Shown here piece by piece: positions 8,534 through 61,590 of a DNA stretch of 64,000 bases (position 1 is the stretch's first letter; each line of letters starts with the position of its first letter). The DNA comes from an uncultured Gammaproteobacteria bacterium (GTDB taxonomy: Bacteria; Patescibacteriota; Microgenomatia; UBA8517; UBA10165), in the NCBI GenBank assembly GCA_964472675.1, contig CAYYLO010000001.1, positions 21,704 to 85,703 on the forward strand, given 5' to 3'. Both the position numbers and the translations under genes were made by a program. Under the pieces are notes generated by a model. That model was not told the DNA's origin. It worked only from the letters and a program-made list of their open reading frames with translations, and searched no databases.

Positions 8534-9635
8534 TGATTGTGTCAGAAGCGGTTTTGCTCCAGGAAAACTCTCTTACTTTCTCAAAACCAGCTTGAATCAG
8601 TTCTTTTTTCAGATTAGTATCACTTATAACTTTTTCTAGACCTGCTGCCAACGCTTGCACATTTTTTGGATTCACAAATAGTGCTGCTCCCTCACCTATC
8701 TCAGTCAACGCCTGAGTTTCTCCTGCAACAACGGGAGTACCACAGGCCATCGCCTCCAATACCGGAAATCCAAAACCTTCGTAAAACGAGGGCTGGCAGT
8801 AAACCTCTGCTAAATTATAAATCTTTACCAAGTCTTCATCCGACACAAAGCCCAACATGTGCACCTTGTCTTCCATCTGAAATTCCCCAATCAACCGACG
8901 TATTTCTCTGGCCTCGTCGGTTTCACCTTCGAAGGCTTTACCCACCAGAACAAGATGAGTGGTGAGTGGTAAGTGGTGAGCAACTAGAGAAAATGCACGT
9001 ATAAGTCCTGGAATATTTTTGTTGTAATTGATATCTCCAACGTACAACGCAAAACGCTCCGGTAAACCGTAGCGTTTTATAATTTCCAATTTCCAATTTC
9101 GCGCCGCCGGCAAAGCCTTTGGCGACGCACGGCCAATTTCCAATTTTCGGAGCAGAGGATTGGGGGCAAAGTGCGTGACAAAAATTTTGCCTGCAGGAAT
9201 ATCCAAAAAGCGCACCACATCTTTTTTTGTAGTTTCGGTATTTACAATAACTGCATCCGCCTTTTGCAGCCTTTTCTTTTGACCAGAAAACCTTAATCTT
9301 CCGCGAACCCCTGCAGGAAAATGCTCGGGATAAATCAGAGGGTGAGTATCATGAACCGTAACTACTATTGGAACGTTATTCCTATCAGGCAATGTATTAA
9401 AGAAAAAATCAAAGTACGGATAGTGAATGATATCATGGTGATCTTTCTCCTCCACTAGTTCAACACCCTTTTGTTCTTTTAGCGCCCGCAATAGTTGAAT
9501 GGCGTAGCGGCCCATGCCGCGTACAGCATGACCTGGGATAGTGGGGTTCGAGTCGAGAAAGACTCGAACCAGTGGCGAGTGGTTAGTGGTTGGTGGTTGG
9601 TGTTGCTTTGTATTATCCATAAATGCAATTCCCAT
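8505..9635 (-). CDS. GT4-family glycosyltransferase
   Basis: GMGRYAIQLL (GT4 GIGRY-type N-terminus), LYVGDINYNKNIPGLIRAF, EGFGFPVLEAMACGTPVVAGETQALTEIG. The N-terminal ~40 aa is low-complexity and overlaps a hairpin plus heptamer repeats, so the true start is uncertain. Confidence 0.85.
   Translation of the reverse strand: MGIAFMDNTKQHQPPTTNHSPLVRVFLDSNPTIPGHAVRGMGRYAIQLLRALKEQKGVELVEEKDHHDIIHYPYFDFFFNTLPDRNNVPIVVTVHDTHPLIYPEHFPAGVRGRLRFSGQKKRLQKADAVIVNTETTKKDVVRFLDIPAGKIFVTHFAPNPLLRKLEIGRASPKALPAARNWKLEIIKRYGLPERFALYVGDINYNKNIPGLIRAFSLVAHHLPLTTHLVLVGKAFEGETDEAREIRRLIGEFQMEDKVHMLGFVSDEDLVKIYNLAEVYCQPSFYEGFGFPVLEAMACGTPVVAGETQALTEIGEGAALFVNPKNVQALAAGLEKVISDTNLKKELIQAGFEKVREFSWSKTASDTINVYKKVLGK
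9081..9147. repeat. Two copies of aatttccaattt(c/t) (complement of GGAAATTGGAAATT) flanking a 32-nt GC-rich segment inside the GT4 gene
   Basis: 9081-9100 aatttccaatttccaatttc; 9133-9147 ccaatttccaatttt; between them gcgccgccggcaaagcctttggcgacgcacgg. The protein reads RKLEIGRASPKALPAARNWKLEI. Confidence 0.7.
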
Positions 9636-17173: not shown

Positions 17174-18840
17174 TGTGTACTAACTAACCAAATAGCGTCC
17201 TGGCCATTGGGAAATTTGATCTTCTCGACAACATTTGCATTTGAAGAAAACTCGTTAGATTTTCCTATCAAAAGCGTATCTTTTTTGCCAAAAGCCTTAG
17301 AGTCAATACTTGTAAAATTATACTTACCCAAACTGTAATCTCCCAATTGGTCTACAAAGGAACGCCCCTCTGTTTTGTATCTCAGCCAATCTTGAGCTTG
17401 TTTTTGGTAATCTGCCGGATCCCATTTCTTGTAAAAGGCCATATAGATTTGCGGCTCTGATAAAGAGCGGCTAAAGACAACTTGGGAATATCTACTGTCA
17501 ATTGCTGAAGTTAGTTCAACGGCTTGTTTTCTACCATAAAGCATGGCCTGGGCCTGATCCCGCGGCGCGTGGTAATAATAGTCTTCCAAAAAGAATCCTA
17601 AACTCACCAACAATATAGCAATATAACTATATAGCAGTAATTTTTTTGATACTCGCCATTTCTGAGAAATTAAATCCAGCAAAACTAAGGCACCATACGC
17701 AGATAATATTTGTAAGGCCGGCATCATTACCGCCACTCGATTCCCCGCATACCCTGGGCCCTTTGTTAAAGCAGCGGGTATTGGCGCAATCAAAATCCAA
17801 ATTATTAACAATTTAAGGGGTCCCCTTGCCGAGCCTGCAAGGGGACCCCTTGCAAAGATCGACCACAATGAAACAAGTATAAAAGGCAGTTCAACCAGGT
17901 AAAGAACTCCTCTGCCGGGAATCATGCCGTAAGTCCACTCGCCTGCCCCTTGAGTAAACAAAAACTGGGGCGAAAAATAGGAGAGATATCTTTGAGAAAA
18001 TTCCTTAAACACATAAACTAGTTTGTTCGAGAAAATTCTTTCTATAACGTCTGGCACTCCGGCCAAAACTGCCTCATACCGCCTGTCGGCAAGGTTCGCC
18101 CAGTTGTCTGTAGGATTAAAAATTGCAATATCCGATCCGCGGCCTCCCGCCCCAGAAAAAAGCATCGTATAAGCGGCAACGGCAATAAAGACAGCCAACA
18201 CAGCAATAGCTATTCCATACTTCCTTCCCGCCTTAAAGTGCAATAGCAAAGTGCGGCGATCCCACAATAATAAAAGGATAATAAGTGGAGTAAATAATCT
18301 TGCAGAGTGGTAACTAAAGAGATTCAAGCCAAAAGCCAAGGCAGCTACTGCCATCCAACGGGGTTTTTCCAAACCTTTGTAAAACGCCCATACTCCAAGC
18401 GGCATAAAAAATGTCGTCAGGTTTGCCTCGAAAGCGCCGCGGGAAAGTGAAATGTGCCATGGCGATACAGCCAGCAGCCAAGCTGCTAAAATTTCCAATT
18501 TCGATCCGCCGAAGAGCCCTTTAACCATCAAATAAGTGGCGAGTATAGCTAGTGTTCCAAAAACAGCACTAGGGAGTCTCACAGCAAATTCATTAAGTCC
18601 AAATATTGCTACCGAGGGAATTGCTAGATAGGTATATAGCGGAAGTTTATAATCCCCAAAAGACTGCAAAGTTAGAGGAAGAAAGCTACCCCACTGATCT
18701 TTGCCGGTTTTCAAGATTGAGTACGCGTCATAACCAAAAGAGGCCTCATCAGGGGTAAAACCTGCAGGGTGGGAGACAAGGCCAATAAAACGCAAAACAA
18801 AAGCCATCAAAATTATTCCAACCAAGACCACACGGCGCAT
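17170..18840 (-). CDS. PMT/GT39-family glycosyltransferase (GT-C)
   Basis: FTPDEASFGYDAYSILKTGKDQWGSFLPLTLQSFGDYKLPLYTY. ATGA overlap with the downstream gene start at 17170-17173. Contains the palindromic in-frame insert ARGPLAGSARGPL. Confidence 0.85.
   Translation of the reverse strand: MRRVVLVGIILMAFVLRFIGLVSHPAGFTPDEASFGYDAYSILKTGKDQWGSFLPLTLQSFGDYKLPLYTYLAIPSVAIFGLNEFAVRLPSAVFGTLAILATYLMVKGLFGGSKLEILAAWLLAVSPWHISLSRGAFEANLTTFFMPLGVWAFYKGLEKPRWMAVAALAFGLNLFSYHSARLFTPLIILLLLWDRRTLLLHFKAGRKYGIAIAVLAVFIAVAAYTMLFSGAGGRGSDIAIFNPTDNWANLADRRYEAVLAGVPDVIERIFSNKLVYVFKEFSQRYLSYFSPQFLFTQGAGEWTYGMIPGRGVLYLVELPFILVSLWSIFARGPLAGSARGPLKLLIIWILIAPIPAALTKGPGYAGNRVAVMMPALQILSAYGALVLLDLISQKWRVSKKLLLYSYIAILLVSLGFFLEDYYYHAPRDQAQAMLYGRKQAVELTSAIDSRYSQVVFSRSLSEPQIYMAFYKKWDPADYQKQAQDWLRYKTEGRSFVDQLGDYSLGKYNFTSIDSKAFGKKDTLLIGKSNEFSSNANVVEKIKFPNGQDAIWLVSTQ
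17815..17851. repeat. Perfect 15-bp inverted repeat with 7-nt spacer inside a PMT coding sequence
   Basis: aaggggtccccttgc-cgagcct-gcaaggggacccctt; encodes ARGPLAGSARGPL, an ~10-aa insertion relative to the paralogs (e.g. KSPKGW in 10526..12145). Confidence 0.8.
18488..18503. repeat. Additional copy of the GGAAATTGGAAATT motif (complement strand) inside PMT gene 17170..18840
   Basis: aaaatttccaatttcg, encoding SKLEIL; the same 14-mer as at 9081, 9133 and 55974. Confidence 0.65.
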
Positions 18841-44765: not shown

Positions 44766-45105
44766 TTTCTACCTTACCCGGTTTGTATTGTGCTTTTATC
44801 TTCACTCTGTTGCTTTTTAACTCCGGAAAACGAACCCGGGAATATTTATCCAGCTCACAAAACATACCCTGACAATCTATCTCATGCATTTTTCTCCCCC
44901 ATAAACTTTTGAACTTAATACCCAAACGCTCAAACTCTTTATCTTGGTTCTCAATCATAAAGTCACCAATCAGTGGAAGACTATGCAGTCGCTCAAACAA
45001 ACCTTTCAGGGTTGGTGCACTTATCAACTTCTGTGCCACACCATCGGTAACAAAAACTTTCCTTAATAACGCCAATGAGTACTTTTCGGTATTAAAGTTT
45101 GCCAA
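44719..45105 (-). CDS. Hypothetical protein
   Basis: 128-aa ORF convergent with the PMT gene end; no recognisable motifs, and the coding status is uncertain. Confidence 0.25.
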   Translation of the reverse strand: MANFNTEKYSLALLRKVFVTDGVAQKLISAPTLKGLFERLHSLPLIGDFMIENQDKEFERLGIKFKSLWGRKMHEIDCQGMFCELDKYSRVRFPELKSNRVKIKAQYKPGKVEIKYFYPPKWGISTNT

Positions 45106-45548
45106 AGAAAATCTCCTGCCTCTCCGCCGCCAATTTCCAATATGTATCGTAGACTTCTTCCCTTACCTTCATACTAAGTTAGAGTACCACACATAAGAAT
45201 CAGCCTCTCAATAGAGTAAAATTACGAAGTTACTTTTATGCCTACAACACACAGGGCGGAGCATGCATGCATTTTTATGATGGATAAAAATTATCAACAA
45301 GAAAATGGGCAAGATTTGGGACATTTGCAACAAAAAATACTTCACTCGAAGCAATCCGCTTGAACTATCCACTTAAGGAAGTGCGAACTTCGCACGTCTC
45401 ATTAAGCGAACTGCTGTAAGTGAAGTATCCGGTCCTGCCCCTACCCAAACGTATGCTTGGAACGCGCGCCGGACGGCGACAATTCGGAAACGGAATCTTT
45501 GTGTTTATATTATACCTCACATAGCAACATGTCACAATATACCAACAC
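45106..45548. promoter_or_regulatory. Long (~440 nt) non-coding region upstream of the AbrB-like/R-M module
   Basis: No convincing ORF (the minus-strand 45365..45799 ORF lacks any motif). Contains hairpin gtgcgaacttcgcac and -10-like TATATTATAC / TACAAT-like hexamers near 45500-45545. Confidence 0.3.
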
Positions 45549-49962: not shown

Positions 49963-51315
49963 CAAGCCGCGAACAAGGCTAGACAAAGGTGCAAACGCAA
50001 AGGGCACAATCATTTCGTCTTCGGAAAGACCACCGTGAACGCCAAGTTGGCGGTAAGGAACTTCGGGTAAAAATTCATACCAGATGTGATACCCCTGTTT
50101 GGGAATAACCAAAACTGTCCCTACACGTTTGAGAAATCTTTGACGTGGCTTGTTAATGCCAAAAAGTCCTTTATCTATAGCTTCCTGAATTGTAAAAACT
50201 TCGGCGTGTTTTGATAATTCTCCCCGCAGAAAATCCACAACTGCCTCAACCTGTTCAGGGCGGATAAATAAAAATACATCATGCGGGCTACCTGTTGGCA
50301 AGATACGCTGTCCTCTTTTATTCTCCTGAAAATTTTCCTCCAATATTTGGTATTTGTTCAAATTAATAATGTCCTCTCCCCTAATGCTGACCTGTCCATG
50401 ATCTGCCGTAATTAAAAAAAGCGTATCATTTATCTTAGTTTTTTCTAACCTGCCAAGAAACATCTGCATTAAGGAAGATATGTATTCTAAAGAAGTTAAA
50501 TGATCTTGACTATCCGGACCAAAAGCATGGGCTGCTGAGTCAACACCAGCCCAATACAAAAGGTAATAACCTGGGGCGGTGTTGATATTTAAAAGTCCGG
50601 CAACTTTTTCTATAAAGTCTTCTCCTGATAAACAGGGAATTGTTTCCGATCCAAAATGTACCGTTGTTGAATAAACACTTTCACTATACAAAGCGTTAGT
50701 AAATGTGTAGGAAACAATTCCGTATTCTTTCAATTTGCTATAAATAGTTGGCCCCTCATACAACATCTCATGCGAGCCCCCAAAGTTTACCAGCTCATCA
50801 ATATTACTCATTTCTGGAGTTTTAAAAGGAAGGGTCTCTATTATTTGGTCGAATTCTTCGAAGTAAACATTCCATTCGGGAAGCCCGTGTTCCTGTGGGG
50901 TTAGCCCTGTGTGTATTGTTGTTAATGCAGCAGGCGTAGTTGAAGGGAAAACAGAAGTTATCGGGAAAACATCGCCTTTTTTCGATAACAGATCAAAAAA
51001 TTTAAATCTTTGCTGGTATTTGGCGAAGTGGTGAAAAGACAAACCATCAATAACCAATAAAATTACCCTGTTGTATTTTCTACCTTTGACAATCTCGAAA
51101 GGGAATGTTGCTCTTCCCTCGTTAACACCAAAAATCTGTAAAATAGTGGGGACAATTTCGGCAATACTATACTTGCCGTAATAGGGAGCCAATAGTTTAC
51201 CTTTAAGCCTTTCTCTTTTTATGTGATCTAAGAGTTCATAGTGAACCCTATCTCTGGGCAAACGAAAAACATCTTTGAATGCATTTTCCAATTTCCCCAA
51301 CATGTTGCCTGCCAT
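49954..51315 (-). CDS. Alkaline-phosphatase-superfamily nucleotide pyrophosphatase/phosphodiesterase (NPP/ENPP-like)
   Basis: ILLVIDGLSFHHF, SVFPSTTPAALTTIHTGLTPQEHG, ITADHGQ and GVHGG are the metal-ligand motifs of type I phosphodiesterase/NPP (Phosphodiest family). Confidence 0.8.
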   Translation of the reverse strand: MAGNMLGKLENAFKDVFRLPRDRVHYELLDHIKRERLKGKLLAPYYGKYSIAEIVPTILQIFGVNEGRATFPFEIVKGRKYNRVILLVIDGLSFHHFAKYQQRFKFFDLLSKKGDVFPITSVFPSTTPAALTTIHTGLTPQEHGLPEWNVYFEEFDQIIETLPFKTPEMSNIDELVNFGGSHEMLYEGPTIYSKLKEYGIVSYTFTNALYSESVYSTTVHFGSETIPCLSGEDFIEKVAGLLNINTAPGYYLLYWAGVDSAAHAFGPDSQDHLTSLEYISSLMQMFLGRLEKTKINDTLFLITADHGQVSIRGEDIINLNKYQILEENFQENKRGQRILPTGSPHDVFLFIRPEQVEAVVDFLRGELSKHAEVFTIQEAIDKGLFGINKPRQRFLKRVGTVLVIPKQGYHIWYEFLPEVPYRQLGVHGGLSEDEMIVPFAFAPLSSLVRGLLE

Positions 51316-52447: not shown

Positions 52448-52577
52448 TTAACAAATGTAACCATTACCTTGAAGATGTGTATAAGCTTTAGGTAAGAAAA
52501 AGAAGGCAACTTAATTACCTCTTGTCTTGTTCTTGCTTTTCTCCTACACTCATTATTACTCCAGCCGTTTAGTCTAT

Positions 52578-54464
52578 TCACATGAAGCGGGTCTTGATAG
52601 TTTTACTAGTTTCTTTTGTTCTTGTTTTGCTAGGACTTTTCGTGGCACGGAAAGGCACAAACGTCACAAGAATTGGGGTAGCAGCAAGCCCTACCCAAGA
52701 AATAAGCGAAATTACATTGCCTACGGTTCTAGCCTCTGTGTTATAAAGACGAGCTGCAACTTCGTGTTCTCCCTTAGACAAGTCAACATGCATCCGCCCC
52801 CACTCGTCCTGGTTTAACAACACAGAGACTTCCTTGCCATCCACAAAAACTTTCCAGCCTGGGAACTTGAAAATGTTTATGCGCACAACGCCATTATCCT
52901 CATCTTGAGCTACTTTGAATTTTGCCCAGTTGGAGCCTTGAGAAGCATCACTAATTTGCCCCTTACCTGAAACTGCCTCGGCAACAGTTTTTTGCGGCGC
53001 TTTGGGAGCAGCTGAAGCATCTTTTGGCAAATAATCGTATATTCCGGCAGTTTGTTGCAAATCCCAGGCAGCACCTGAGAATTTTTCCTGGTCAGTTAAG
53101 GGGCCCATTTTTTCAGGTTTAAAAAACTGCCAGTTCCAACCAATAACCACCGCAATCAAGACAAAAACTACCCACTTGGCTATTTTGGGATACGTCTTGG
53201 TCAATAAAACTGTACTTGTCCCAGCCACAACAGAGAAGGAAAGCACGGCCAAAGTCAGGAAACGCCAGGGAAACTGTACAAAAAGCAGGGGAGGTATTTG
53301 TTGCCAGATAAACGTCGACTTAACATGAGCCATAAAAGTCGCAAACCAACCCGACAAAAAGAAAAACATGGTCACCAGGACCAGTTCATTGTTGATTTTC
53401 CGACGCTTCAGCAACTTCCATCCCAAAAATAAAACTACGACAATTGCCAATATCCAATGAATTTGCCCGACGGGGAAAGCCATCTTGTCATCTGCGTCTG
53501 CCCAGGCGGAGGGGCCATATCCCCAAAAGCGGCTGGTTAAAAGCTGGCGAATATTGGCAAAATGGGCAACATACTCGTAGTAACCTTGTGTTAAAGTCTC
53601 TACATGTACAAGTTTCTGTTCCAAAAAAACCGGCAAAGTAAAAAATGCGCTCAGCCCAAAAGCCCAGGCACCGCTTATTGCCAAATTGGGGACAGACCTC
53701 CAAGCTTTGTATTTTAATATCCAAATTAAAAGCCAGGCTAAAAAGAGGGGAGTGAAAATTAAAACCATAAGATTGTGCGACGTAAGCAACGCGAACCAGG
53801 CTAAGGCCAGAACCAAAAGCCATCTTGACGGGTGGCGTGGGCGGAGGGAGTCCCACTGAGCCCCCGCAGTCTCGCCAAAGGCGGACGAGGAGGTCGAGTG
53901 GGACGAGCCCGCGACAGGACCCGTCATCCCCGTGGCAGGACCCGAAGCAGGCATAGAACTCTTTATTAATCTGTAACCAGACCACAAAATTAGCGGGAAC
54001 CAAACTAGCGACCAGGCCTCATTCATCGCCCCACGCACATAAATATCAACAGAATGATACGGTGCCCAAATATAAAAAGCGGCAGACAAAAGACCGCCAA
54101 GACGCCCAAAGAATTCACGGGCAAAAATATACATGGTTACACCGCTTATTAAGAAAGACAGAAGAAACGTCAGCTTTACAGTCGTTACAAATGAAAATTG
54201 AAAAAGCCTGAATACCTCCCCCACTAAATAGGGGAGAGGCGGATAAAAATTAAAAAGAGGAAAACCGTAACCGTACCCCATATATTGCGTCCAACGGCAG
54301 GGAATTTGAAAGTCAGCAAAACACTTCTCCATCGCCAGTTGCCTCATCATCTGGAGATCATCATGCATTAAAAAATAGCCGGGGCGCAGAAGCCACCAGC
54401 CAGCCAAAAGTCCAAGCCCAAGCACAAGATAAAAATAAGGATCACTACGGCGCAGAAGGTTCAT
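52578..54464 (-). CDS. YfhO-like/PTPS-related GT-C membrane protein carrying an in-frame GC-rich insertion
   Basis: Colinear with the N-half of the 13817..17173 fusion protein (FADFQIPCRW, PLFNFYPPLPY) and with the YfhO C-terminal beta-sandwich (FKFPGWKVFVDG...GEHEVAARLY). Contains a ~45-aa SGPT-rich insert (MPASGPATGMTGPVAGSSHSTSSSAFGETAGAQWDSLRPRHPSRW). Confidence 0.65.
   Translation of the reverse strand: MNLLRRSDPYFYLVLGLGLLAGWWLLRPGYFLMHDDLQMMRQLAMEKCFADFQIPCRWTQYMGYGYGFPLFNFYPPLPYLVGEVFRLFQFSFVTTVKLTFLLSFLISGVTMYIFAREFFGRLGGLLSAAFYIWAPYHSVDIYVRGAMNEAWSLVWFPLILWSGYRLIKSSMPASGPATGMTGPVAGSSHSTSSSAFGETAGAQWDSLRPRHPSRWLLVLALAWFALLTSHNLMVLIFTPLFLAWLLIWILKYKAWRSVPNLAISGAWAFGLSAFFTLPVFLEQKLVHVETLTQGYYEYVAHFANIRQLLTSRFWGYGPSAWADADDKMAFPVGQIHWILAIVVVLFLGWKLLKRRKINNELVLVTMFFFLSGWFATFMAHVKSTFIWQQIPPLLFVQFPWRFLTLAVLSFSVVAGTSTVLLTKTYPKIAKWVVFVLIAVVIGWNWQFFKPEKMGPLTDQEKFSGAAWDLQQTAGIYDYLPKDASAAPKAPQKTVAEAVSGKGQISDASQGSNWAKFKVAQDEDNGVVRINIFKFPGWKVFVDGKEVSVLLNQDEWGRMHVDLSKGEHEVAARLYNTEARTVGNVISLISWVGLAATPILVTFVPFRATKSPSKTRTKETSKTIKTRFM
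53829..53952. repeat. GC-rich imperfect-palindromic element, copy B, inserted in-frame in a YfhO-like GT-C gene
   Basis: Arms gggagtcccac (53846-53856) and gtgggacgagccc (53898-53910); same orientation as copy A; the peptide it encodes is absent from the paralogous module in 13817..17173. Confidence 0.75.
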
Positions 54465-55993
54465 TCTATCAATTCTAACAGCAAGAGAGACTCCTGTGTA
54501 CCATTGGCTCTCTTGGCTTTCGGATAGGAATTAACGAGTTTTAAGCCAACTTCTTCTGGATGTTCAATTTTAAAGCGAGTCGAGTTCACCACTAAAAAAA
54601 CCCTATCACCTGCAACTTTAGCATCAACCAAAGACTTGTCCACTCCAGTTATGGTTATTCCCACACCCTTAACTACGATTCCCGGGATATCAGACAGGTA
54701 AATTTGCAAACCGTCAGGCAAGGTTCCAAAAAATCCCTCCGTTCCGACCAAAACCTTTTGATTTGGATTTTGCGCTTTTTGCGCTTTTACATATTGGGCA
54801 ATTTCGCGAATACCCTTTCCGGCAGTCCACTCCTCCAAATATCCGGCTCGTTCTTCCCGTGGAAGGGGCGCCTGGGCAGGATTAGTAAGTATTTTGTAAT
54901 TTACAAATAAAGACGGTAAGACAATAAAGGCACCGCCCAAAGCCAGGAGATTTTTATTTTTGACTCTTCCTAGCGCATATGCTGCCAATATCAAAATCGG
55001 AGGCAGGGTAAAAAGTATGTAGCGTGCCGTAAAAACCCTGGCAAAGGCCGCCTCAATTACCAGAGGCCCAATACTCCACCCCAATAGCAATAAAAGCTGG
55101 CGCCAATCCTTTTTTAAGGCCAGCACTGCCCCCAAAATGGCAATCAAAAGTACAGTTATCGGCAGCATTTTGGAAAACCAGTCAAAGAGATCATAAAAGT
55201 GCGGGATTGCTGGGTCCAGTGGATGCCGCAAAACTTCTGAAAAACTATAGACATAATCTTTGTTTCGCAAAGCCAGCATGTGGAAACTGGGGCCTAAGCG
55301 CAGAATATTGTACATCCCCAAAGCAATAACCCACGACACCAGCCACAGTGCTCCCAATTTTCCCAACTTCCCCCACTTGCCCTTTCCCCTGAATTCCCCT
55401 AATAGCAGAGTAGAAGGCAGGAGGAGCAGGAAAAATACCCCCGGGGATTTAGTCAGATATGCAAAACCCAAAGCAAAACCGGTTAACATCGCCCAATCAA
55501 GCCTTAACTCCTGCACTGTGAGTACTCCAAAATAGAGGCTCCACACCCCAAAGCAAGCCAATAAGCTATCAACCAACGCCATTCTGTCAAAAAAAACTGT
55601 AAAAGGCGATACAGCATAGATTAGCGCAGCCAAAATTGCCGTCTTTTTGTTCTTGAAGAGCCTTAAAGTGACAAAAAAAATTCCCGTCAAGGTTCCCAAT
55701 CCTGCCAGGACAGACAATGTTCTTCCAGCAACCAAAGGATCGCTTATCACCTTTAAAAAAGGAATGGTTAGCCACATAAACAGCGGCTGCTTGCCGTCCT
55801 CCAAGGGCAGAAAACGCAAAGTTGAAACAGCTCTCATAACTTGAGCCCAACGGATATAAATCGCCTCATCGGCAAAAATAGGAATGGAGAAAATGTTGTA
55901 TGTGCGAAGCAATATTGCCAGGAGTAGTACAACCATTCCCCAAAGTATTACCGCTCGCCACTTTGTATCCTCTGAAAATTGGAAATTGGACAT
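54461..55993 (-). CDS. ArnT/GT83-like (PMT_2) GT-C membrane glycosyltransferase
   Basis: IFADEAIYIRWAQVM loop motif as in ArnT. Start set at internal ATG (MSNFQF, 55993) to avoid a 59-nt overlap with the upstream GT2; the track ORF extends to 56068. The start is embedded in the GAAATTG heptamer array. Confidence 0.7.
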   Translation of the reverse strand: MSNFQFSEDTKWRAVILWGMVVLLLAILLRTYNIFSIPIFADEAIYIRWAQVMRAVSTLRFLPLEDGKQPLFMWLTIPFLKVISDPLVAGRTLSVLAGLGTLTGIFFVTLRLFKNKKTAILAALIYAVSPFTVFFDRMALVDSLLACFGVWSLYFGVLTVQELRLDWAMLTGFALGFAYLTKSPGVFFLLLLPSTLLLGEFRGKGKWGKLGKLGALWLVSWVIALGMYNILRLGPSFHMLALRNKDYVYSFSEVLRHPLDPAIPHFYDLFDWFSKMLPITVLLIAILGAVLALKKDWRQLLLLLGWSIGPLVIEAAFARVFTARYILFTLPPILILAAYALGRVKNKNLLALGGAFIVLPSLFVNYKILTNPAQAPLPREERAGYLEEWTAGKGIREIAQYVKAQKAQNPNQKVLVGTEGFFGTLPDGLQIYLSDIPGIVVKGVGITITGVDKSLVDAKVAGDRVFLVVNSTRFKIEHPEEVGLKLVNSYPKAKRANGTQESLLLLELIE

Positions 55994-56010
55994 TGGAAAT
56001 TGGAAATTTT
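55974..56010. repeat. GAAATTG heptamer tandem array (5 units) at the GT2/ArnT-like gene junction
   Basis: gaaaattg gaaattg gacattg gaaattg gaaattt read directly from the sequence; it spans the probable ArnT-like start codon. Confidence 0.8.
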
Positions 56011-56795
56011 TATTTGTATTTCCCCTGGAGCGCATACCAGCGAATCCGAAGCATGTCGCGCAACCCATCGATGGAATCTTTAATAATATTTACTCGAGTT
56101 GTGCCAGGGTGATGCCATTCCACAGGCATTTCCTTTATTTTATAACCAAGCTTGCGGGCAACAAACAAAATCTCCAGGTCAAATCCTGCTTTAACTGCTG
56201 CACCGGAAATTACCCCACCCTTGCCAAAAATTTTCAAACGGGAGAAAATGTCACGCGCCGCCTCTTGTTTGAAAGCCTTAAATCCTGTTTGTGTATCCTT
56301 GAAAGGCAATCTCAAAATCATAGTTCTTAAAATAACAAATCCATAAGCAGTGATCTTGCGGATAAAAGGCATTCCTGCTCTGCCATGCCTTGATCCGATC
56401 ACCACATCATATCCCTGCTCGAAATGTGGCAAAAACTTTTCTACCTGATTTATTGGAGTTGCCTGATCTGTATCTGTAAAGAGAATAATCGCGCCGCCTG
56501 CTTTACCTACACCCGTAGTTACAGTTGCCGCCTTCCCCTGGTGCGGGTTCCTAATAAGCCTCACCCTTTCGTCCTGCTTTTCGAACTTTTCCAGAAGTGT
56601 AGCAGTGTTATCTGCCGATCCGTCGTCTACAAATATTATCTCCCAGGTGTATTTTTGCTTTTTGAGATATGAAATTAAACTTTCGGGAGCGCCTCTTTTT
56701 ATATTGACTTCCTCGTTATATGCCGGCACTACCACTGACAAAAATGGTGTATTTTTATACGCAGTTGAAGAGAAATTCTGATTTGTTTTACTCAT
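56010..56795 (-). CDS. GT2 polyprenyl-phosphate sugar synthase (Dpm1/GtrB-like)
   Basis: LSVVVPAYNEEVNI ... FVDDGSADNT ... FTDTDQA ... KDTQTGFKAFKQEAARDIF. Confidence 0.85.
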   Translation of the reverse strand: MSKTNQNFSSTAYKNTPFLSVVVPAYNEEVNIKRGAPESLISYLKKQKYTWEIIFVDDGSADNTATLLEKFEKQDERVRLIRNPHQGKAATVTTGVGKAGGAIILFTDTDQATPINQVEKFLPHFEQGYDVVIGSRHGRAGMPFIRKITAYGFVILRTMILRLPFKDTQTGFKAFKQEAARDIFSRLKIFGKGGVISGAAVKAGFDLEILFVARKLGYKIKEMPVEWHHPGTTRVNIIKDSIDGLRDMLRIRWYALQGKYK

Positions 56796-58311
56796 TGATC
56801 CTTTGTCTTCGTTCCACAGTTATCCCTCCAAACCGGGCACTTTTTTCAACCTTGCCAATCCCTTCTTGACGCGCAAGCCATGCATCCAGCCTCTCGGGAT
56901 GTGGAGGGTCAACCTCATATAGAGTATACAGAAGTTTTTCCCTTTGTTCGACAGGAGCGCAAGATTTTACAGCGCCTCCATACCATGTAAACAGATATTT
57001 GTAAGCATGTGGAATCACAGGCGGCACGTACTCGTCGTCGTTAAACTTTCGGCAACCCCCCATATCCTGATAAATCCAATCCAACGCTTGTTTTTGATTG
57101 CCGAAAGCGATAGTGTTCGGCCCATCAACGTTGTTATTAATATAATTTTTTGTAATTGGTAAATTATCGTTCAGAAAAAAATAGATAAAAAGGACTAAAA
57201 CAAGTTTTCCCCACCATGCCCGGGCAGCCAAGCCAAAAACAGAAGCCATAACTAAAACAAAAACAAAGTAGTAACCGGTAAAATAGTAGTCATACACGTT
57301 TCCCTGATTGCCCTGGAAAAATACCATTCCGGCAAGAGGAGATACAAAAACAAGTAAAACTGCCGGAAAGTACCTATTTTTAAAAAGGCGTCTTGCAACT
57401 ATTAAAAATCCAGCTCCCAGGATAAGCGCTGTTTTGTACCTGTATTGCCCTGTGACCGGAAAAAGTTTTGAGCCGAATATGTCCAGATAAAACTTCCCTC
57501 TTGCGCTTACAATATCCCAAAAGGAAAGCTTAAAACTTTGGTCTCCGATTAAAAATTTACCAATAGCCACCCGTAATATTCCTTCGTGTTTAATATCAAA
57601 CCAGATTTGTGGGACAAACGTGACAAAGAGCGCTGCTAAGCTTAACCCAAACACAAACAGCGATGGTAAAGTTTTTCGCTGCCACACGGCAAAAATTAAA
57701 GTTGCCGGGAACAAAAACACTTCTGTCGCACTGCCAAATTGCATAGCCATTCCCAATAAAAACCCAATAGGAATCCAGGCCCATATCCTTTTCTGAATTA
57801 CTAAAAACATGGAATACAGTAAAAGCATGCTTACTAGAAACATGGGCGTAGGATTGGAAAGCCATCGGGCGGCAACTACAAAGAAGAAGGAAAAAGCTCC
57901 AATGATCAAAGCAGTAAACGCTCCGGTTTTACCACTTATTTGGTATGTTAAGTGGAACAATACAAAAAGCGCCAGCACTGTTGTTAGAGCCAAAAACACG
58001 GCGGGCCAAACAGGATCTCCTCTACCCAACCAATAAAAAGGCGTAATCAGCCAATAGTACCAGGGTCCTCTGAAAATCCCCTCAATGCCTGTGGTCGGGC
58101 CAATTAAGAATAGCTTGCCGCGGTGCAGGAAATCCCAAACAACTTGAGCATCTCTGCCCTGATCAAAATAAAAACCCAAAATTTTATCCGTTCTCCAAAC
58201 CCGCACATATGCCGCCAGGATTAAAATCACAAAGAGCACATAATAAGTCATGCGTCCAGGCATTCTTTCCAAAGCCAACTCTTTTTGTAAATTCTTCCAA
58301 ATTTTCTTCAC
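56788..58311 (-). CDS. ArnT/GT83-like GT-C membrane glycosyltransferase
   Basis: GFYFDQGRDAQVVWDFL...LIGPTTGIEGIFRGPWYYWL, paralogous to the 28899 and 59300 proteins. Confidence 0.6.
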   Translation of the reverse strand: MKKIWKNLQKELALERMPGRMTYYVLFVILILAAYVRVWRTDKILGFYFDQGRDAQVVWDFLHRGKLFLIGPTTGIEGIFRGPWYYWLITPFYWLGRGDPVWPAVFLALTTVLALFVLFHLTYQISGKTGAFTALIIGAFSFFFVVAARWLSNPTPMFLVSMLLLYSMFLVIQKRIWAWIPIGFLLGMAMQFGSATEVFLFPATLIFAVWQRKTLPSLFVFGLSLAALFVTFVPQIWFDIKHEGILRVAIGKFLIGDQSFKLSFWDIVSARGKFYLDIFGSKLFPVTGQYRYKTALILGAGFLIVARRLFKNRYFPAVLLVFVSPLAGMVFFQGNQGNVYDYYFTGYYFVFVLVMASVFGLAARAWWGKLVLVLFIYFFLNDNLPITKNYINNNVDGPNTIAFGNQKQALDWIYQDMGGCRKFNDDEYVPPVIPHAYKYLFTWYGGAVKSCAPVEQREKLLYTLYEVDPPHPERLDAWLARQEGIGKVEKSARFGGITVERRQRINE

Positions 58312-59303
58312 AGATTTTTTAAATATTCTTTAACCCGACCGATAATTTCATTGACCTTTTCCTCAAAGATGCCAGAAAATTTAGTTGCGAAACCAGCTGC
58401 AGCAACGTGCCCTCCTCCGCCAAACATGGAAGCAATTTTGGCAACATCAATTTCTGTGCGGCTTCTCAAACTTCCCGTTATCATTCCCTTTTCTTCCTCT
58501 CTTAATATTAACGCGAAATCTACTCCATCAATATTTTTAGCAATATCAGATCCGCCAACGGCAAATTCTGTTCCGCCCAAACTCTCTATTTCGGGCAAAG
58601 ACGTGGCCGCCCAAACGAAGTTATATTTCCCTGAAGTTTCTTGTCTTAACTTTCGAACAACTTCCGCCTGATATTGCACTTCTTTAAGAGGTGTCCGGCT
58701 GTAAAGGTTAAAATTAACTACATCTAAATCCGCACCAGATTTAATTAACTGACTTGCCGCGTCCAAAGTATTTTCAGACGTTACCCACCGGAAAGTCCCC
58801 GTATCGGCGGCTATTGCAGTTAAAAGATCAGTCGCGATTTTAGAATTGACAGATGCACCCCAATCCTGAAATAACCTGCAAAGAATTTCCCCTGTGGAGC
58901 TCGCCTTATCGTCAACCAAATTTATCGAGCCGAATTTTGTATTTGTTTCGTGGTGGTCAATAACAACCACTTTTTGTATTGGAAGTTTCAAGTGTTCATG
59001 CCGTGTTACTCTTTTCTCTTCCGGACTATCCATTAAAACCAGCAAATCAAACTGTTCAAAGTCTGCTTCGCGCGGATCTTTGTTGATAACACTATCAAAC
59101 TGGTGTAAAAAGTTTAAATTTATAGGAGCAGTATCCGCTGCCCAAACTTCAACGGTTTTCCCCAAACTCTTAAGATAAGAAGACAATGCAAGATTTGAGC
59201 CAACGCTATCTCCATCCGGATTAATATGCAAAGCTAAAAATATTTTTGATGAACCTTCCAGCGCTTCCTTAATAGTTGCGGATTCAGAGTAGTTTGCAGT
59301 CAT
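58308..59303 (-). CDS. nrnA: DHH-family phosphoesterase (NrnA-like bifunctional oligoribonuclease/pAp phosphatase)
   Basis: LHINPDGDSVGS (DHH motif I/II), VVIDHHETN (DHH), and C-terminal DHHA1 GGGGHVAAAGF. Confidence 0.8.
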   Translation of the reverse strand: MTANYSESATIKEALEGSSKIFLALHINPDGDSVGSNLALSSYLKSLGKTVEVWAADTAPINLNFLHQFDSVINKDPREADFEQFDLLVLMDSPEEKRVTRHEHLKLPIQKVVVIDHHETNTKFGSINLVDDKASSTGEILCRLFQDWGASVNSKIATDLLTAIAADTGTFRWVTSENTLDAASQLIKSGADLDVVNFNLYSRTPLKEVQYQAEVVRKLRQETSGKYNFVWAATSLPEIESLGGTEFAVGGSDIAKNIDGVDFALILREEEKGMITGSLRSRTEIDVAKIASMFGGGGHVAAAGFATKFSGIFEEKVNEIIGRVKEYLKNL

Positions 59304-60844
59304 GGATTGGAATGGGCAAGTTTATAGATTTTAACACCCTGTACTTCCCAGGAATCGACAATTTTACTCATCCCAAAATGGGCAATTTGGGAACTGGCGT
59401 CTGTCGTTGGACTGCAATCCTGCTTTTCGCATATTACAAACAACTGGTCGGTTACAGTTTCTGTTACGCGTTGCGGATCTGCTTCCTTAGCGGGGGATCT
59501 CCAAAGGTCAAAAAAGTAAAGATATCCTTCGTTGTAATTTCTTTCGGCAATAAGACCAATATTAAATGGCTTTCCCCCGCTTTCCTGAAGTATCTTTCGA
59601 TCAATATTTTCTGTCCTTTTCAACTGGTTTTGCCCAGAATGCTTTAGGGGAGTGTTTGTCAGGTTAAAGAGTGTCAACCCGACAATTCCCGCCAACACCA
59701 ACTGTCTTCCCCACCTTCTCTGGTTCCACACCCTCTCCGCCAAGCCTCCTATCAGTAGAAACGGTGCAGGAAATAAAAAACCAAAATAGTGGTCATAAAC
59801 ATTTTGTTTCAAAGACCCCAAGCCTACAAGTCCAACCCCCAACCACAAAATTAAGATAAACATCGGTCTATCCAATTTGCGTTTCTGCCACCAGTAAAAA
59901 AATATTCCCCCTATTGCTCCTATTCCACCAATTGTTCCTATTACCTTATTCCCCCCACTTAATAAAGAAGTCACTATCTGTTTCCAAAGCGGCCAAAGAA
60001 GCGGAAGCGCCGACCACGGTTTTGCCGAAACGGTTTCCTGTCTGTGGGAAAAAAAGATAAACATAGAGGAGAGATTGTGCCAGCCGTGCTTTGAGTCAAA
60101 AATCACGAGTGGGCTCATAAGCAAAACGAAAAACGCTAAACCGAAAAGCGTATAAAGTAAAAATCGTTTGCCGTCCTGCGTACGCAGCCGTGTGTTCGCC
60201 GTTTGCCGTGCGCCCCACCACGACAATGTCCCAAGAATTAAAATTGCCGGCGCAAGCAGTAAGCCCAAATAGTGAGACTGGAGAACAAAAGCGTATGAAA
60301 TCCCTAAAACCACCAACCACCAGTACTGTTTACCTTTCCAAACTTTCCATATACTCCAAATTGACAGTAATGCAAAAAAGGGCATTATGTTTGGATTCCA
60401 TGAATGCTTAGAAAGACCCACAACTGCCGGAGATACGGCATAAAGCAGAGCCGCAGCAACAGCCCCAATTCTGCCAAACCACTCTCTTGCAACATACCAT
60501 ATAAATGCGACAGTAGCCGTGCCTAAAATTGCAACTGAAACTGCAGGCCCTACCGGTGAAAAACGAAAAAGCAACAGCCACGGGGATATAAAGTAATAAT
60601 AGAGGGGACCCAAATACATATCCCCAATCGAAGTTCTGGGCCCGATAAACATCAAATCAAACTGAGTTAAAAACCGGTAAACCACACGAACATCCCGCCC
60701 CTCATCGCCTAAAAAAGGAAGGTACTGGTCAATTTTCCAAAGCCGGAAAAAGGCGCCCAAAAGAAGAATAACAATTAAAAAGGTGGCTTCGATTTTGTTC
60801 TTCGCCACCCACGTTCGCAATTTGTCAAATTTATCATTTGTCAT
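59300..60844 (-). CDS. ArnT/GT83-like GT-C membrane glycosyltransferase
   Basis: LPFLGDEGRDVRVVYRFL...IGPRTSIGDMYLGPLYYYF. Start set at the ATG forming an ATGA overlap with the upstream GT2 stop (60841-60844); the track ORF extends to 60898. Confidence 0.7.
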   Translation of the reverse strand: MTNDKFDKLRTWVAKNKIEATFLIVILLLGAFFRLWKIDQYLPFLGDEGRDVRVVYRFLTQFDLMFIGPRTSIGDMYLGPLYYYFISPWLLLFRFSPVGPAVSVAILGTATVAFIWYVAREWFGRIGAVAAALLYAVSPAVVGLSKHSWNPNIMPFFALLSIWSIWKVWKGKQYWWLVVLGISYAFVLQSHYLGLLLAPAILILGTLSWWGARQTANTRLRTQDGKRFLLYTLFGLAFFVLLMSPLVIFDSKHGWHNLSSMFIFFSHRQETVSAKPWSALPLLWPLWKQIVTSLLSGGNKVIGTIGGIGAIGGIFFYWWQKRKLDRPMFILILWLGVGLVGLGSLKQNVYDHYFGFLFPAPFLLIGGLAERVWNQRRWGRQLVLAGIVGLTLFNLTNTPLKHSGQNQLKRTENIDRKILQESGGKPFNIGLIAERNYNEGYLYFFDLWRSPAKEADPQRVTETVTDQLFVICEKQDCSPTTDASSQIAHFGMSKIVDSWEVQGVKIYKLAHSNP

Positions 60845-61590
60845 TGGGCATTTGTCATTTTGATTTTTCGCCATGGGCGTACCCACCACATCCTCCACAA
60901 CCCTTTAAGGTCTCCCCAGGCCGTTTTGGCAACTTTTACCGTTGAAGCCGGATCATCCCGCCAAACTATAGGTATCTCACAAATTTTGTAGCCCGACTTT
61001 TCGGCCAAAATTAGAAGTTCAGAATCAAAAAACCAGGCTTTATCAAGGATGTGCGGCAATAGTTTCTGTGCAGCTTCGCGCCTTATGCCTTTAAAGCCGC
61101 ATTGAGCATCATGAAAACTTGTCCAAAAGAATGTCTTTATTAAAATGTTGTAGCCTCTAGACATAACCTCACGAAGAAGCGTTCTCCCATAAACTTGAGC
61201 TCCCCTTTTTAACCTTGAGCCAATTGCAACATCAGCACCACCTTCAAACAATGACTTAACCAGATGGGGAAGAAAGTTTAAGTCAGAAGAAAGGTCAACA
61301 TCCATATAGACAGATACGCCCTCCTTGCTTTTAAGCCACATTTCTTTTAATGCGTTTCCCCTCCCAGGCCTGGGAATCAGCACATATTCAAGTCTTTTAT
61401 ATTTTTTAGCCAAAGCTTTAGAAACTTCTCCTGTCCGGTCTTTAGAAGGGCCATTGTCTAATATGTAGAGCCGCCAATCATAAGATTGGAAATTATCCTG
61501 CAGGTATTTATATAAAACAGGTATGGTTCGGGGAATATCTTTCTCTTCGTTATAAACAGGAACAGAAACACCAAGCGTGGGAGCACTCAT
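60841..61590 (-). CDS. GT2 polyprenyl-phosphate sugar synthase (Dpm1/GtrB-like)
   Basis: VSVPVYNEEKDI ... ILDNGPSKDRT ... MDVDLSSD ... HDAQCGFKGIRREAAQKLL. Confidence 0.85.
   Translation of the reverse strand: MSAPTLGVSVPVYNEEKDIPRTIPVLYKYLQDNFQSYDWRLYILDNGPSKDRTGEVSKALAKKYKRLEYVLIPRPGRGNALKEMWLKSKEGVSVYMDVDLSSDLNFLPHLVKSLFEGGADVAIGSRLKRGAQVYGRTLLREVMSRGYNILIKTFFWTSFHDAQCGFKGIRREAAQKLLPHILDKAWFFDSELLILAEKSGYKICEIPIVWRDDPASTVKVAKTAWGDLKGLWRMWWVRPWRKIKMTNAQ

What the first reader, a model, noticed from the sequence alone, without database searches (positions are those of the whole stretch)
55974..56010. Dispersed GGAAATTGGAAATT heptamer-array repeat occurring in both coding orientations
The 14-mer (heptamer GAAATTG x2, up to x5) occurs at 9081-9100, 9133-9147 and 18488-18503 (complement), and at 55974-56010 (direct). 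About 0.0005 such 14-mer matches would be expected by chance in 64 kb. In different hosts it is translated as KLEI(G), NWKLEI or NFQFPMSNFQF, i.e. in both orientations relative to the gene. So conservation is at the DNA level, not the protein level. Related G-rich variants (gggaaagttagggaaattgggg at 10975-11005, ggggaagttgggaaaattggga at 55345-55375) encode WGKLGKLG in two PMT/ArnT paralogs at non-homologous positions. Candidate roles: a REP/MITE-like selfish repeat, a protein-binding site array, or slippage-prone tracts. One copy straddles a start codon.
Basis: seen in the sequence. Interest (0 to 1): 0.55.

Follow-up and report, generated by a model that had tools for sequence, protein, structure and literature searches.

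The report
Seven-base tandem repeats inside bacterial genes
The flagged sequence is a real seven-base tandem repeat (GGAAATT) that has no stop codon in any reading frame, so it can grow and shrink inside and between the genes of a tiny uncultured bacterium; it belongs to a repeat class known in other bacteria, here in an unusual, translated form.

Summary
(GGAAATT)n-derived words are the only 13- and 14-mers found at three or more separate places in the window.

The copies are heptanucleotide tandem arrays, not a REP or MITE element. The window comes from a Patescibacteria (CPR) glycosyltransferase cluster; the closest relatives are named Blackburnbacteria.
- 55974-56008: five units lie antisense to the genes and span a GT2/PMT gene junction. 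The PMT start codon sits in a variant unit (AATGTCC).
- 9081-9148: a five-unit array in the interdomain linker of a GT4 gene, split by a 33-nt GC-rich palindrome.
- 18490-18502: a 1.9-unit proto-array in a PMT gene.

The unit is stop-free in all six frames (GNWKLEI / NFQFPIS). Close relatives differ by exactly 7, 14 or 21 nt at these arrays.

The same arrays occur in frame in LeuRS, IleRS, TopA, GatA, GT2 and GT4 genes across many CPR lineages. Period 7 dominates the long tandem repeats in the loci examined, which fits the published over-representation of heptameric repeats in bacteria.

Best explanation: replication slippage filtered by selection.

Three features remain unexplained: sharp 3' array ends, adjacent hairpins, and in-frame palindromes inserted at one fixed position in the unit (ATTG^GAAATT). 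They leave open an enzyme-driven process.

The parts
55974..56008 (+). Five-unit heptamer array (+ strand: GAAAATT GGAAATT GGACATT GGAAATT GGAAATT). On the gene (-) strand it reads AATTTCC AATTTCC AATGTCC AATTTCC AATTTTC. It fills the 16-nt spacer after the GT2 stop codon (TAA 56012-56010), supplies the PMT start codon (ATG 55993-55991), and codes the first residues, MSNFQFS.
   Evidence: Relatives L260 and L259 start the ortholog at the same ATG unit and differ by one unit (7 nt) and by 21 nt. The sequence is identical in two Logan assemblies.
9081..9100 (-). Downstream part of the GT4-linker array: GAAATT GGAAATT GGAAATT, coding (R)NWKLEI.
9101..9133 (-). A 33-nt, 76% GC palindromic in-frame insert (GCCGTGCGTCGCCAAAGGCTTTGCCGGCGGCGC, coding GRASPKALPAA) that splits the array between ATTG and GAAATT.
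   Evidence: Removing it restores a perfect array (24/24 matches) equal to the uninterrupted array of ortholog L257. It folds at -17 kcal/mol.
9134..9148 (-). Upstream part of the same array: GAAAATT GGAAATT G, coding (R)KLEI.
9051..9078 (-). Hairpin with an 8-bp stem (AAAACGCT / AGCGTTTT) and a 12-nt loop, starting 2 nt 3' of the array. It lies in the codons for IKRYGLPERF.
   Evidence: The stem is perfect, with compensatory synonymous changes, in L254 and L256, and absent in most other orthologs.
18490..18502 (-). Proto-array of 1.9 units (GAAATTGGAAATT, coding KLEI) in PMT_2 gene 17170-18840, followed by a 6-bp hairpin, AGCAGCttgGCTGCT.
   Evidence: The homologous spot in L064 carries exactly three more units (+21 nt, KLEIGNW).
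51283..51296 (-). Weak two-unit tract (GGGAAATTGGAAAAT) at codons 6-11 of the phosphodiesterase gene. Membership in the family is uncertain.
60829..60860 (-). Another heptamer array with a different unit ((GACAAAT)n on the gene strand), at the second GT2/PMT junction. It shows that the phenomenon does not depend on the unit.
   Evidence: There is a 14-nt indel against L260 at this spot.

Best explanation
These are heptanucleotide simple-sequence repeats (microsatellite-like arrays of the unit GGAAATT).

They arise and change length by slipped-strand mispairing during replication. They start from chance proto-repeats such as AAATTGGAAATT, which codes K-L-E-I.

None of the seven cyclic triplets of GGAAATT, on either strand, is a stop codon. 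The array can therefore be read through in any frame and orientation, as cyclic GNWKLEI or NFQFPIS.

In a gene-dense CPR genome, arrays survive where length changes are tolerated: interdomain linkers, variable loops and gene junctions. Inside ORFs only changes of three units (21 nt, 7 codons) are kept. Outside ORFs single units come and go.

The consequences are variable peptide linkers and a variable 5' end, start codon included, of one PMT glycosyltransferase gene.

Shown here: the arrays, their statistical excess, unit-sized differences between relatives, six-frame openness, their placement, and their wide distribution. Inferred: slippage as the mechanism, and near-neutrality of the arrays.
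For: 1. Statistical excess in the window.

2. Unit-sized indels.
- The junction array has 5 units in the window and 4 in L260 (a 7-nt gap). L259 has 5 units but 21 nt fewer after the ATG.
- In 11.3 kb aligned at 80.5% identity to L260 there are only 17 indels. The 7-nt one at 56008 and the 14-nt one at 60825 fall in the two junction arrays.

3. Expansion in place. PMT paralogs all carry AAAWTGRRRRTT at one spot. The L064 ortholog has exactly +21 nt (three units) there.

4. Array states at the GT4 linker among orthologs:
- uninterrupted, in L257;
- decayed, in L064 and L179;
- a different unit, (AGATACA)4, in L177.

5. Period 7 is general.
- In 457 kb of loci chosen by a protein, not by a repeat, long perfect tandem repeats number 18 for period 7, all with different units. 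Periods 6, 8 and 9 give 3, 2 and 1.
- The window has about 10 period-7 arrays with various units.

6. GGAAATT is not unique.
- 17-mers of GGAATTT, GAGAATT and GGGAATT arrays give 43, more than 120, and 18 hits in viral contigs, against 49 for GGAAATT.
- After masking the selected arrays, GGAAATT is not a leading unit in 350 kb of CPR loci.

7. Literature. Heptameric SSRs are over-represented in many bacteria, with a polymerase-slippage explanation; GGGAATC occurs in Xanthomonas and GGGGA(T/C)T in Nostoc (PMC4692102).

8. Tolerated sites. 39 of 56 arrays in CPR loci lie in open frames of at least 200 aa. Hosts include LeuRS, IleRS, TopA, GatA, GT2 and GT4. The PMT loop that holds the 18490 copy varies in length from 28 to 85 residues among 150 family representatives.
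Against: - The same unit recurs in unrelated genes and in many CPR lineages, in both orientations. One case is an antisense array (FSIFNFQFSI, P0251) at the very PMT loop where L064 has a sense array. Slippage from a local proto-repeat cannot explain that case.
- Arrays are polar. The 3' end is sharp and the 5' end fuzzy.
- Perfect hairpins abut the 3' end: MFE <= -12 kcal/mol at 14.4% of sites, against 4.1% of controls and 1.6% upstream.
- In-frame palindromes sit at the same position of the unit in at least four independent arrays.
- The closest GT4 orthologs (P0002, P0003; 70-72% identity) have a decayed tract, while a 51% ortholog has a perfect one. This needs repeated re-homogenisation.
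- No length variation was seen among three Logan assemblies.
Confidence: 0.62

Rival explanations
1. The arrays are made or used by an enzyme-driven, sequence-specific process. Candidates are a very small mobile element, a templated-insertion system, or a nick-and-repair system. In this view units are added at one end, next to a hairpin, and GC-rich palindromes are integrated at a fixed site in the unit (ATTG^GAAATT).
For: - Palindromic in-frame inserts of 33, 21, 54 and 30 nt sit at the identical intra-unit position in the window, L087, L170 (an IleRS gene) and L256. Removing them restores the array at 24/24, 24/24, 22/24 and 19/24 matches. L254 and L255 share the same left boundary.
- Hairpins are enriched only on the 3' side: 18 sites downstream against 2 upstream, p = 4e-4; Fisher test against controls, p = 2e-5.
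- The 3' boundary is sharp: 80 of 127 arrays end on ...GGAAATT.
- Arrays occur in both orientations at the same protein loop in homologs.
- At least 51 of the 120 genome hits are labelled as CPR lineages.
Against: - No associated gene was found.
- The palindromes are unique sequences with no other copies in the window or in relatives.
- There are no terminal inverted repeats and no recognisable target duplication.
- Other heptamer units form arrays as often or more often.
- Flanking hairpins are not enriched for heptamer arrays of other units.
- Expansion in place from a proto-repeat is seen directly.
- The boundary statistics are partly shaped by the search pattern used.
Confidence: 0.17
2. 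The junction array is a contingency (phase-variation) switch. Gain or loss of one or two units downstream of the ATG would frameshift this PMT/ArnT-type glycosyltransferase on or off. Changes upstream of the ATG would alter translational coupling to the GT2 gene. Either would diversify surface glycans.
For: - The unit length is not a multiple of 3.
- Two units lie between the ATG and the first conserved residues, and two lie in the 16-nt spacer.
- Unit number and the position of the ATG-bearing unit differ among relatives that are 89-90% identical.
- A second GT2/PMT junction carries another heptamer array, with a 14-nt indel against L260.
- From general knowledge: the cluster holds many paralogous surface glycosyltransferases, as contingency loci of pathogens often do.
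Against: - All alleles seen are in frame.
- Three independent assemblies are identical.
- The arrays are short (2-5 units).
- Most arrays in CPR lie in housekeeping genes, where switching off would be lethal.
Confidence: 0.12
3. The repeat reflects selection for a peptide motif (KLEIGNWKLEI or the like) that the proteins need.
For: GT4 orthologs down to about 50% identity keep F.KLxxGxWxLEIxKRY at the linker. PMT paralogs keep K-L-x-I-L at the 18490 spot.
Against: - The same DNA is read in other frames and on the other strand in unrelated proteins.
- Part of the 55974-56008 array is not coding.
- The DNA is perfectly periodic at synonymous positions too.
- One ortholog has a different heptamer, (AGATACA)4, at the same site.
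- Lengths change by whole units.
Confidence: 0.05
4. Chance, or a by-product of base composition and codon usage.
For: K, L, E, I and N codons are common in AT-rich genomes. The 12-mer at 45130-45141 looks like such a chance match.
Against: See the shuffle tests and the look-elsewhere census, and the arrays of 3-5 perfect units in many genomes.
Confidence: 0.02

Closest known systems
Heptameric simple sequence repeats of bacteria: the STRR repeats of heterocystous cyanobacteria, GGGGA(T/C)T in Nostoc/Anabaena, and GGGAATC in Xanthomonas (PMC4692102, which cites Mrazek 2007 and the Calothrix heptanucleotides)
   Same: - Head-to-tail 7-nt units with many dispersed loci per genome.
- Length and sequence variation between close relatives.
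- Occasional inverted pairs able to form stems.
- A similar unit shape, GGRRAYY.
- Period 7 favoured over neighbouring periods.
   Different: - Those repeats are described as mainly intergenic and G-rich, with G-quadruplex potential.
- Here the unit is AT-rich with only GG runs, the host is Patescibacteria, and most arrays are inside ORFs and translated in frame.
- This is possible because the unit is stop-free in six frames.
Phase-variable contingency loci (SSRs in 5' coding regions or promoters, e.g. Haemophilus influenzae; PMC2651432 was listed but not read)
   Same: A repeat whose unit is not a multiple of 3 sits at the start of a surface glycosyltransferase gene. Its copy number differs between relatives.
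   Different: - The arrays are short.
- No within-population variation was seen.
- No out-of-frame alleles were seen.
- Most sister arrays lie in essential genes.
Rickettsia palindromic elements (in-frame selfish DNA in protein-coding genes; from my own knowledge)
   Same: Repetitive DNA is tolerated inside ORFs because it keeps the frame and lands in permissive protein regions.
   Different: RPEs are dispersed palindromic elements of about 100-150 bp with a family consensus. Here the arrays are tandem 7-mers, and the palindromic inserts are short (15-54 nt) and unique in sequence.
Small dispersed repeats (SDR, 21-27 nt) of Nostoc punctiforme (Elhai et al. 2008; from my own knowledge, the paper was not held)
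   Same: Very short sequences are found inserted in genes and within other repeats, some able to form hairpins.
   Different: SDRs are multi-copy families of fixed sequence. The palindromes seen here are single-copy, and the arrays vary in length.
GC clusters of yeast mitochondrial DNA (from my own knowledge)
   Same: GC-rich palindromes of 20-50 nt are inserted into AT-rich DNA, coding regions included.
   Different: Those form sequence families with known target preferences. No family was found here, and the host and genetic system are unrelated.

Membership tests
Heptanucleotide SSR / STRR-type repeats | Head-to-tail tandem copies of a 7-nt unit | tested here: met
   TRF reports period 7 with 4.7 and 2.9 copies. 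The sequence was read directly.
Heptanucleotide SSR / STRR-type repeats | Several dispersed loci in one genome | tested here: met
   There are 3-4 GGAAATT loci in the 64 kb, plus about 8 heptamer arrays with other units.
Heptanucleotide SSR / STRR-type repeats | Copy number differs between close relatives by whole units | tested here: met
   Differences of 7, 14 and 21 nt lie at the arrays.
Heptanucleotide SSR / STRR-type repeats | Mainly intergenic location (as described for Nostoc and Xanthomonas) | tested here: not met
   Most copies here and in other CPR genomes lie inside ORFs. Only part of 55974-56008 is intergenic.
G-quadruplex-forming heptamers (GGGNATC type) | Runs of at least 3 G in each unit | tested here: not met
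   The unit GGAAATT has only GG.
REP / BIME elements | An imperfect palindrome of 20-40 nt as the repeated unit, located outside genes | tested here: not met
   The arrays are direct repeats, not palindromic, and mostly intragenic. The adjacent palindromes are not repeated elsewhere.
REP / BIME elements | An associated RAYT (REP-associated tyrosine transposase) gene | not tested
   Only 64 kb of the genome is available. No transposase was noticed among the ORFs scanned.
MITE | Terminal inverted repeats, a target-site duplication, and a fixed length of roughly 100-400 bp | tested here: not met
   Array length is 13-40 nt and variable, with no terminal inverted repeats.
Phase-variable contingency locus | An SSR with a unit that is not a multiple of 3, in the 5' coding region or promoter | tested here: met
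   The 7-nt unit lies around and after the ATG of the PMT gene.
Phase-variable contingency locus | Length heterogeneity within a population that switches the frame | tested here: inconclusive
   Assemblies from three runs are identical. Reads could not be examined.
Known RNA families (Rfam 15) | A match at gathering score | tested here: not met
   There is no match at any array. The only hit in the window is DUF3800-IX at 45427-45497.

The most novel reading that the evidence does not exclude
(GGAAATT)n tracts in Patescibacteria may not be passive microsatellites. They could be the substrate of an undescribed site-specific process acting inside essential genes.

In this reading, arrays grow at a sharp 3' end next to hairpins. 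GC-rich palindromes are integrated, always in frame, at one fixed position of the unit (ATTG^GAAATT) in independent lineages. The result would be a very small insertion system, or a nick-and-repair system, that remodels protein loops.
Probability: 0.15. Interest if true: 0.75.

Novelty: new member of a known kind. Interest (0 to 1): 0.4.

Why it matters
Heptameric repeats are known to be oddly common in bacteria but have barely been studied, and mostly as intergenic DNA. This case shows three things:
- In the small, gene-dense genomes of CPR bacteria, such arrays live inside genes, including aminoacyl-tRNA synthetase and topoisomerase genes.
- They are translated in either orientation.
- They change by whole units between relatives.

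That makes them a steady source of length variation in protein loops and at gene starts. It is also a practical warning for annotation: start codons, N-terminal extensions and 'low-complexity' peptides in CPR proteins may be repeat-derived.

The fixed-position palindromic inserts and the one-sided hairpins are cheap to test genome-wide. If confirmed, they would point to a new mutational mechanism.

Tried and rejected
- Source genome: not found. The window is not among the loci from the genome scan, and exact-protein look-ups returned only short Logan contigs.
- The metagenome scan with the GT4 alignment returned mostly distant homologs, at 40% identity or less. Only a few were informative.
It shows only that long translated arrays are rare.
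- Elhai 2008 (small dispersed repeats) is not held. No paper contains the repeat or its peptide as a string.
- Rfam: nothing at the arrays. The promoter/terminator scan of the junction was no better than shuffles.
- Hairpins next to heptamer arrays of other units are not enriched. The hairpin association is therefore not general.
- 8-bp hairpins in the window as a whole are not in excess: 16 against about 19 in shuffles.
- The GC-rich palindromes have no second copies in the window or in relatives. A multi-copy palindromic element is therefore rejected.
- The idea that GGAAATT is uniquely favoured is rejected on present data.
- A link between arrays and four-helix-bundle (23S IVS-type) genes in non-CPR genomes could not be shown. 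The ORFs next to those arrays are short or broken.
- The 3' hairpin in the GT4 gene is perfect in only 3 of 15 orthologs, too few for a covariation claim.
Full report
**1.

The exact 14-mer GGAAATTGGAAATT occurs at 9081-9094 (-) and 55995-56008 (+). Allowing one mismatch gives 9 overlapping matches at five places, against 0.14 expected from dinucleotide shuffles.

The finding was made after the fact, so I counted every repeated word in the window. The only 13-mers present at three or more separate loci, and the only such 14-mer, all derive from (GGAAATT)n. A periodic scan gives two loci with at least 18/21 matches to three units, against 0.07 expected. TRF calls 55976-56008 (period 7, 4.7 copies) and 9081-9100 (period 7, 2.9 copies).

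**2. Setting**

The window is a tightly packed, mostly minus-strand cluster of glycosyltransferase genes. It holds at least 15 PMT_2/ArnT-like paralogs plus GT2 and GT4 genes. The closest proteins are named Candidatus Blackburnbacteria, Levybacteria or Microgenomates. This places the organism in Patescibacteria (CPR).

**3. Anatomy of the copies**

*(a) 55974-56008.* On the gene strand this reads AATTTCC AATTTCC AATGTCC AATTTCC AATTTTC.
- The upstream GT2 gene stops at TAA 56012-56010.
- The first two units fill the 16-nt spacer.
- The variant unit AATGTCC supplies the PMT start codon (ATG 55993-55991).
- The last two units code SNFQFS.
- Orthologs P0121 (MSNFQFPADEKWR) and P0122 (MSKKWR) start at this same ATG.

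*(b) 9081-9148.* This lies in the GT4 gene, between its two Rossmann-type domains (Pfam domain limits).
- The sequence is GAAAATTGGAAATTG, then a 33-nt insert, then GAAATTGGAAATTGGAAATT, coding RKLEI-GRASPKALPAA-RNWKLEI.
- The insert is 76% GC and palindromic.
- Removing it leaves a perfect five-unit array, equal to the uninterrupted array of ortholog L257.

*(c) 18490-18502.* GAAATTGGAAATT codes KLEI in a PMT gene.

*(d) Other matches.* 51283-51296 is a weak two-unit tract. 45130-45141 looks like chance.

*(e) The 'G-rich variants'.* These have periods of 8-9 and code GKL repeats. I do not count them as members.

**4. Why both orientations are tolerated**

The seven cyclic triplets of GGAAATT are GGA, GAA, AAA, AAT, ATT, TTG and TGG. 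Those of its complement are AAT, ATT, TTT, TTC, TCC, CCA and CAA. None is a stop codon.

Any frame of the sense strand therefore reads a rotation of GNWKLEI. Any frame of the antisense strand reads a rotation of NFQFPIS. Three units (21 nt) add exactly seven codons. This follows directly from the sequence and matches every translation seen.

**5. Relatives show unit-sized change**

- *Junction array.* The window has 5 units. L260 (89% protein identity) has 4, a clean 7-nt gap. L259 (90%) has 5 units with the ATG unit last and 21 nt fewer after the ATG.
- *Indels overall.* Over 11.3 kb aligned to L260 at 80.5% identity there are only 17 indels. The 7-nt one at 56008 and the 14-nt one at 60825 fall in the two heptamer arrays at the two GT2/PMT junctions.
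- *PMT site.* The paralogs all carry AAAWTGRRRRTT. The L064 ortholog of ORF 10526-12178 has exactly 21 nt more (KLEIGNW). This is an expansion in place from a proto-repeat.
- *Assemblies.* Three Logan assemblies of the same population are identical to the window. No variation within the population was seen.

**6. The GT4 linker site across orthologs**

The array-derived peptide is kept down to about 50% identity (consensus F.KLxxGxWxLEIxKRYxLPERF). At the DNA level the states are:
- uninterrupted GAAAATT(GGAAATT)3 in L257;
- decayed tracts in L064 and L179;
- GC-rich inserts of 33, 15 and 30 nt in the window, L254/L255 and L256;
- a different heptamer, (AGATACA)4, in L177.

GT4 genes of other CPR lineages (L107, L061, L128) carry the array antisense at the same linker. 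The site is thus a permissive spot where heptamer arrays of either orientation, and even of different units, accumulate.

**7. Wider distribution**

At least 51 are labelled as CPR lineages, over 20 named groups in all. By my own rough estimate, CPR make up only a few percent of the bases searched.

Most hits are arrays of 3-5 units. In CPR loci, 39 of 56 arrays lie in open frames of at least 200 aa, 29 antisense and 10 sense. Hosts include LeuRS, an IleRS-type synthetase, TopA, GatA, GT2 and GT4. By eye, against E. coli TopA and T. thermophilus LeuRS sequences recalled from memory (not aligned with a tool), the arrays in TopA and LeuRS seem to occupy variable loops with little net change in length.

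Outside CPR the arrays are mostly long, mixed-unit and intergenic, like the cyanobacterial repeats.

**8. Period 7 is general and GGAAATT is not unique**

- In 457 kb of loci chosen by a protein query, long perfect tandem repeats number 18 for period 7, all with different units. Periods 6, 8 and 9 give 3, 2 and 1.
- The window itself has about ten period-7 arrays with various units.
- In viral contigs, the equivalent 17-mers of GGAATTT, GAGAATT and GGGAATT give 43, more than 120, and 18 hits, against 49 for GGAAATT.
- After masking the selected arrays, GGAAATT is not a leading unit in 350 kb of CPR sequence.

This agrees with the literature. [quoted passage not shown] GGGAATC occurs in Xanthomonas and GGGGA(T/C)T in Nostoc, with length variation between relatives (PMC4692102). 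No paper in the library contains the present repeat or its peptides.

**9. Best explanation**

The copies are heptanucleotide SSRs produced by replication slippage and filtered by selection. Stop-free units survive in ORFs. Changes are kept in steps of 21 nt inside ORFs and 7 nt outside. Arrays are retained at linkers, variable loops and gene junctions.

The PMT loop holding the 18490 copy ranges from 28 to 85 residues among 150 family representatives, which fits a permissive site.

**10. What this does not explain**

- *(i)* Perfect hairpins abut the 3' end of (GGAAATT)n. MFE <= -12 kcal/mol occurs at 14.4% of 125 sites, against 4.1% of controls and 1.6% upstream (Fisher p = 2e-5; 18 against 2, p = 4e-4). 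The window shows this at 9051-9078 and, weakly, after 18490.
- *(ii)* Array ends are sharp on the 3' side and fuzzy on the 5' side. The search pattern biases this measure.
- *(iii)* In-frame palindromes of 33, 21, 54 and 30 nt sit at the same intra-unit position, ATTG^GAAATT, in the window, L087, L170 and L256. The array is restored when they are removed. L254/L255 share the left boundary. By chance, four events in one of seven phases has p of about 0.003.
- *(iv)* An antisense array (P0251) occupies the same PMT loop as a sense array.

Against a mobile element:
- the palindromes are single-copy;
- hairpins are not enriched next to other heptamer arrays;
- no associated gene was seen.

I give an enzyme-driven process about 0.15-0.17.

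**11. Phase variation**

Phase variation of the PMT gene is possible in principle, because 7-nt units lie after the ATG. Only in-frame alleles were seen. It cannot be tested without reads.

**12. Verdict**

This is a real feature and a new member of a known repeat class: heptameric SSRs, here AT-rich, six-frame open and translated, in Patescibacteria. It is not a REP or MITE element and not a binding-site array. Interest is moderate. The fixed-position palindromic inserts and the one-sided hairpins are the parts worth following up.

Noticed in passing
window 17815-17851: A perfect GC-rich palindrome with a 15-bp stem (AAGGGGTCCCCTTGC..GCAAGGGGACCCCTT; z = -6.1) lies inside PMT gene 17170-18840. 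It codes ARGPLAGSARGPL in a loop that is 5-8 residues longer than in the paralogs. The sequence is unique, with no other copy found.
   Followed up: partly
window 9545-9602: A hairpin with a 10-bp stem (GGTTCGAGTC gagaaa GACTCGAACC) is followed 7 nt later by another heptamer array, (AGTGGTT)3.6. Both lie in the stretch between the GT2 gene and the likely true start of the GT4 gene. The 22-residue N-terminal extension of ORF 8505-9635 is absent from all orthologs.
   Followed up: partly
window 60829-60860: A second GT2/PMT junction carries a different heptamer array, (GACAAAT)n on the gene strand, which holds an ATG in each unit. It differs from relative L260 by a 14-nt indel.
   Followed up: partly
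window 45427-45497 (-): This is the only Rfam hit in the window: DUF3800-IX RNA (41 bits, gathering score 36.8). It lies next to an ORF (44719-45105, probably starting near 45171) that matches the helical domain of 5-hmdU DNA kinase.
   Followed up: no
window 10500-26800, 37100-44800, 52500-60900: There are at least 15 tandem PMT_2/ArnT-like paralogs, including a fused double-length one (13817-17173), interleaved with GT2 and GT4 genes. This is an unusually large glycosylation cluster.
   Followed up: no
window 10975-11010 and 55345-55382: G-rich tracts with periods of 8-9 both code WGKLGKLG, in two PMT paralogs at different positions. Orthologs of the second keep GKxxWGKLGKL. Their relation to the heptamers is unclear.
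   Followed up: partly
L081 (Saccharibacteria LeuRS fragment): One LeuRS gene holds three separate heptamer-derived segments: ISNFQFPIS, ISNFQFSIS, and KIENWKL in the opposite orientation. The first abuts a perfect hairpin whose outer arm covers the conserved YLxY motif.
   Followed up: partly
L177, about 4500-4560 (GT4 homolog): A different heptamer array, (AGATACA)4, sits at exactly the GT4 linker position where the window has (GGAAATT)n.
   Followed up: no
L066, L078, L110, L122, L134, L158 (non-CPR MAGs): A conserved hairpin, AGCCGTTyACGGCT, followed by TGAA, precedes the GGAAATT array. Often an inverted array lies shortly downstream, so the pair can form a long stem. The ORFs next to these arrays are short or broken. 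One begins MKRVYELDVYRL, which resembles four-helix-bundle (23S IVS-type) proteins.
   Followed up: partly
L064 (CAYIKF010000001.1): The record is labelled 'uncultured Gammaproteobacteria' but is syntenic with window 4.6-11.8 kb at 65-70% nucleotide identity, so it is a CPR genome. Several other 'Gammaproteobacteria' records among the hits may be mislabelled in the same way.
   Followed up: partly
P0001 / L089: The database gives 105,837 nt as the longest contig carrying the window's GT4 protein. That is exactly the length of MFQZ01000008.1 (Magasanikbacteria), which holds 4 repeat hits. Yet its fetched part (L089) shares no sequence with the window. This coincidence is unexplained.
   Followed up: partly
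L089, L103 (Magasanikbacteria RIFOXYC2_FULL_42_28): Six 17-mer hits lie within a larger dispersed repeat of about 100 nt built from several heptamer types (TTTGACA, TTTGGAT, GGAAATT). It looks like a composite multi-copy element in that genome.
   Followed up: no
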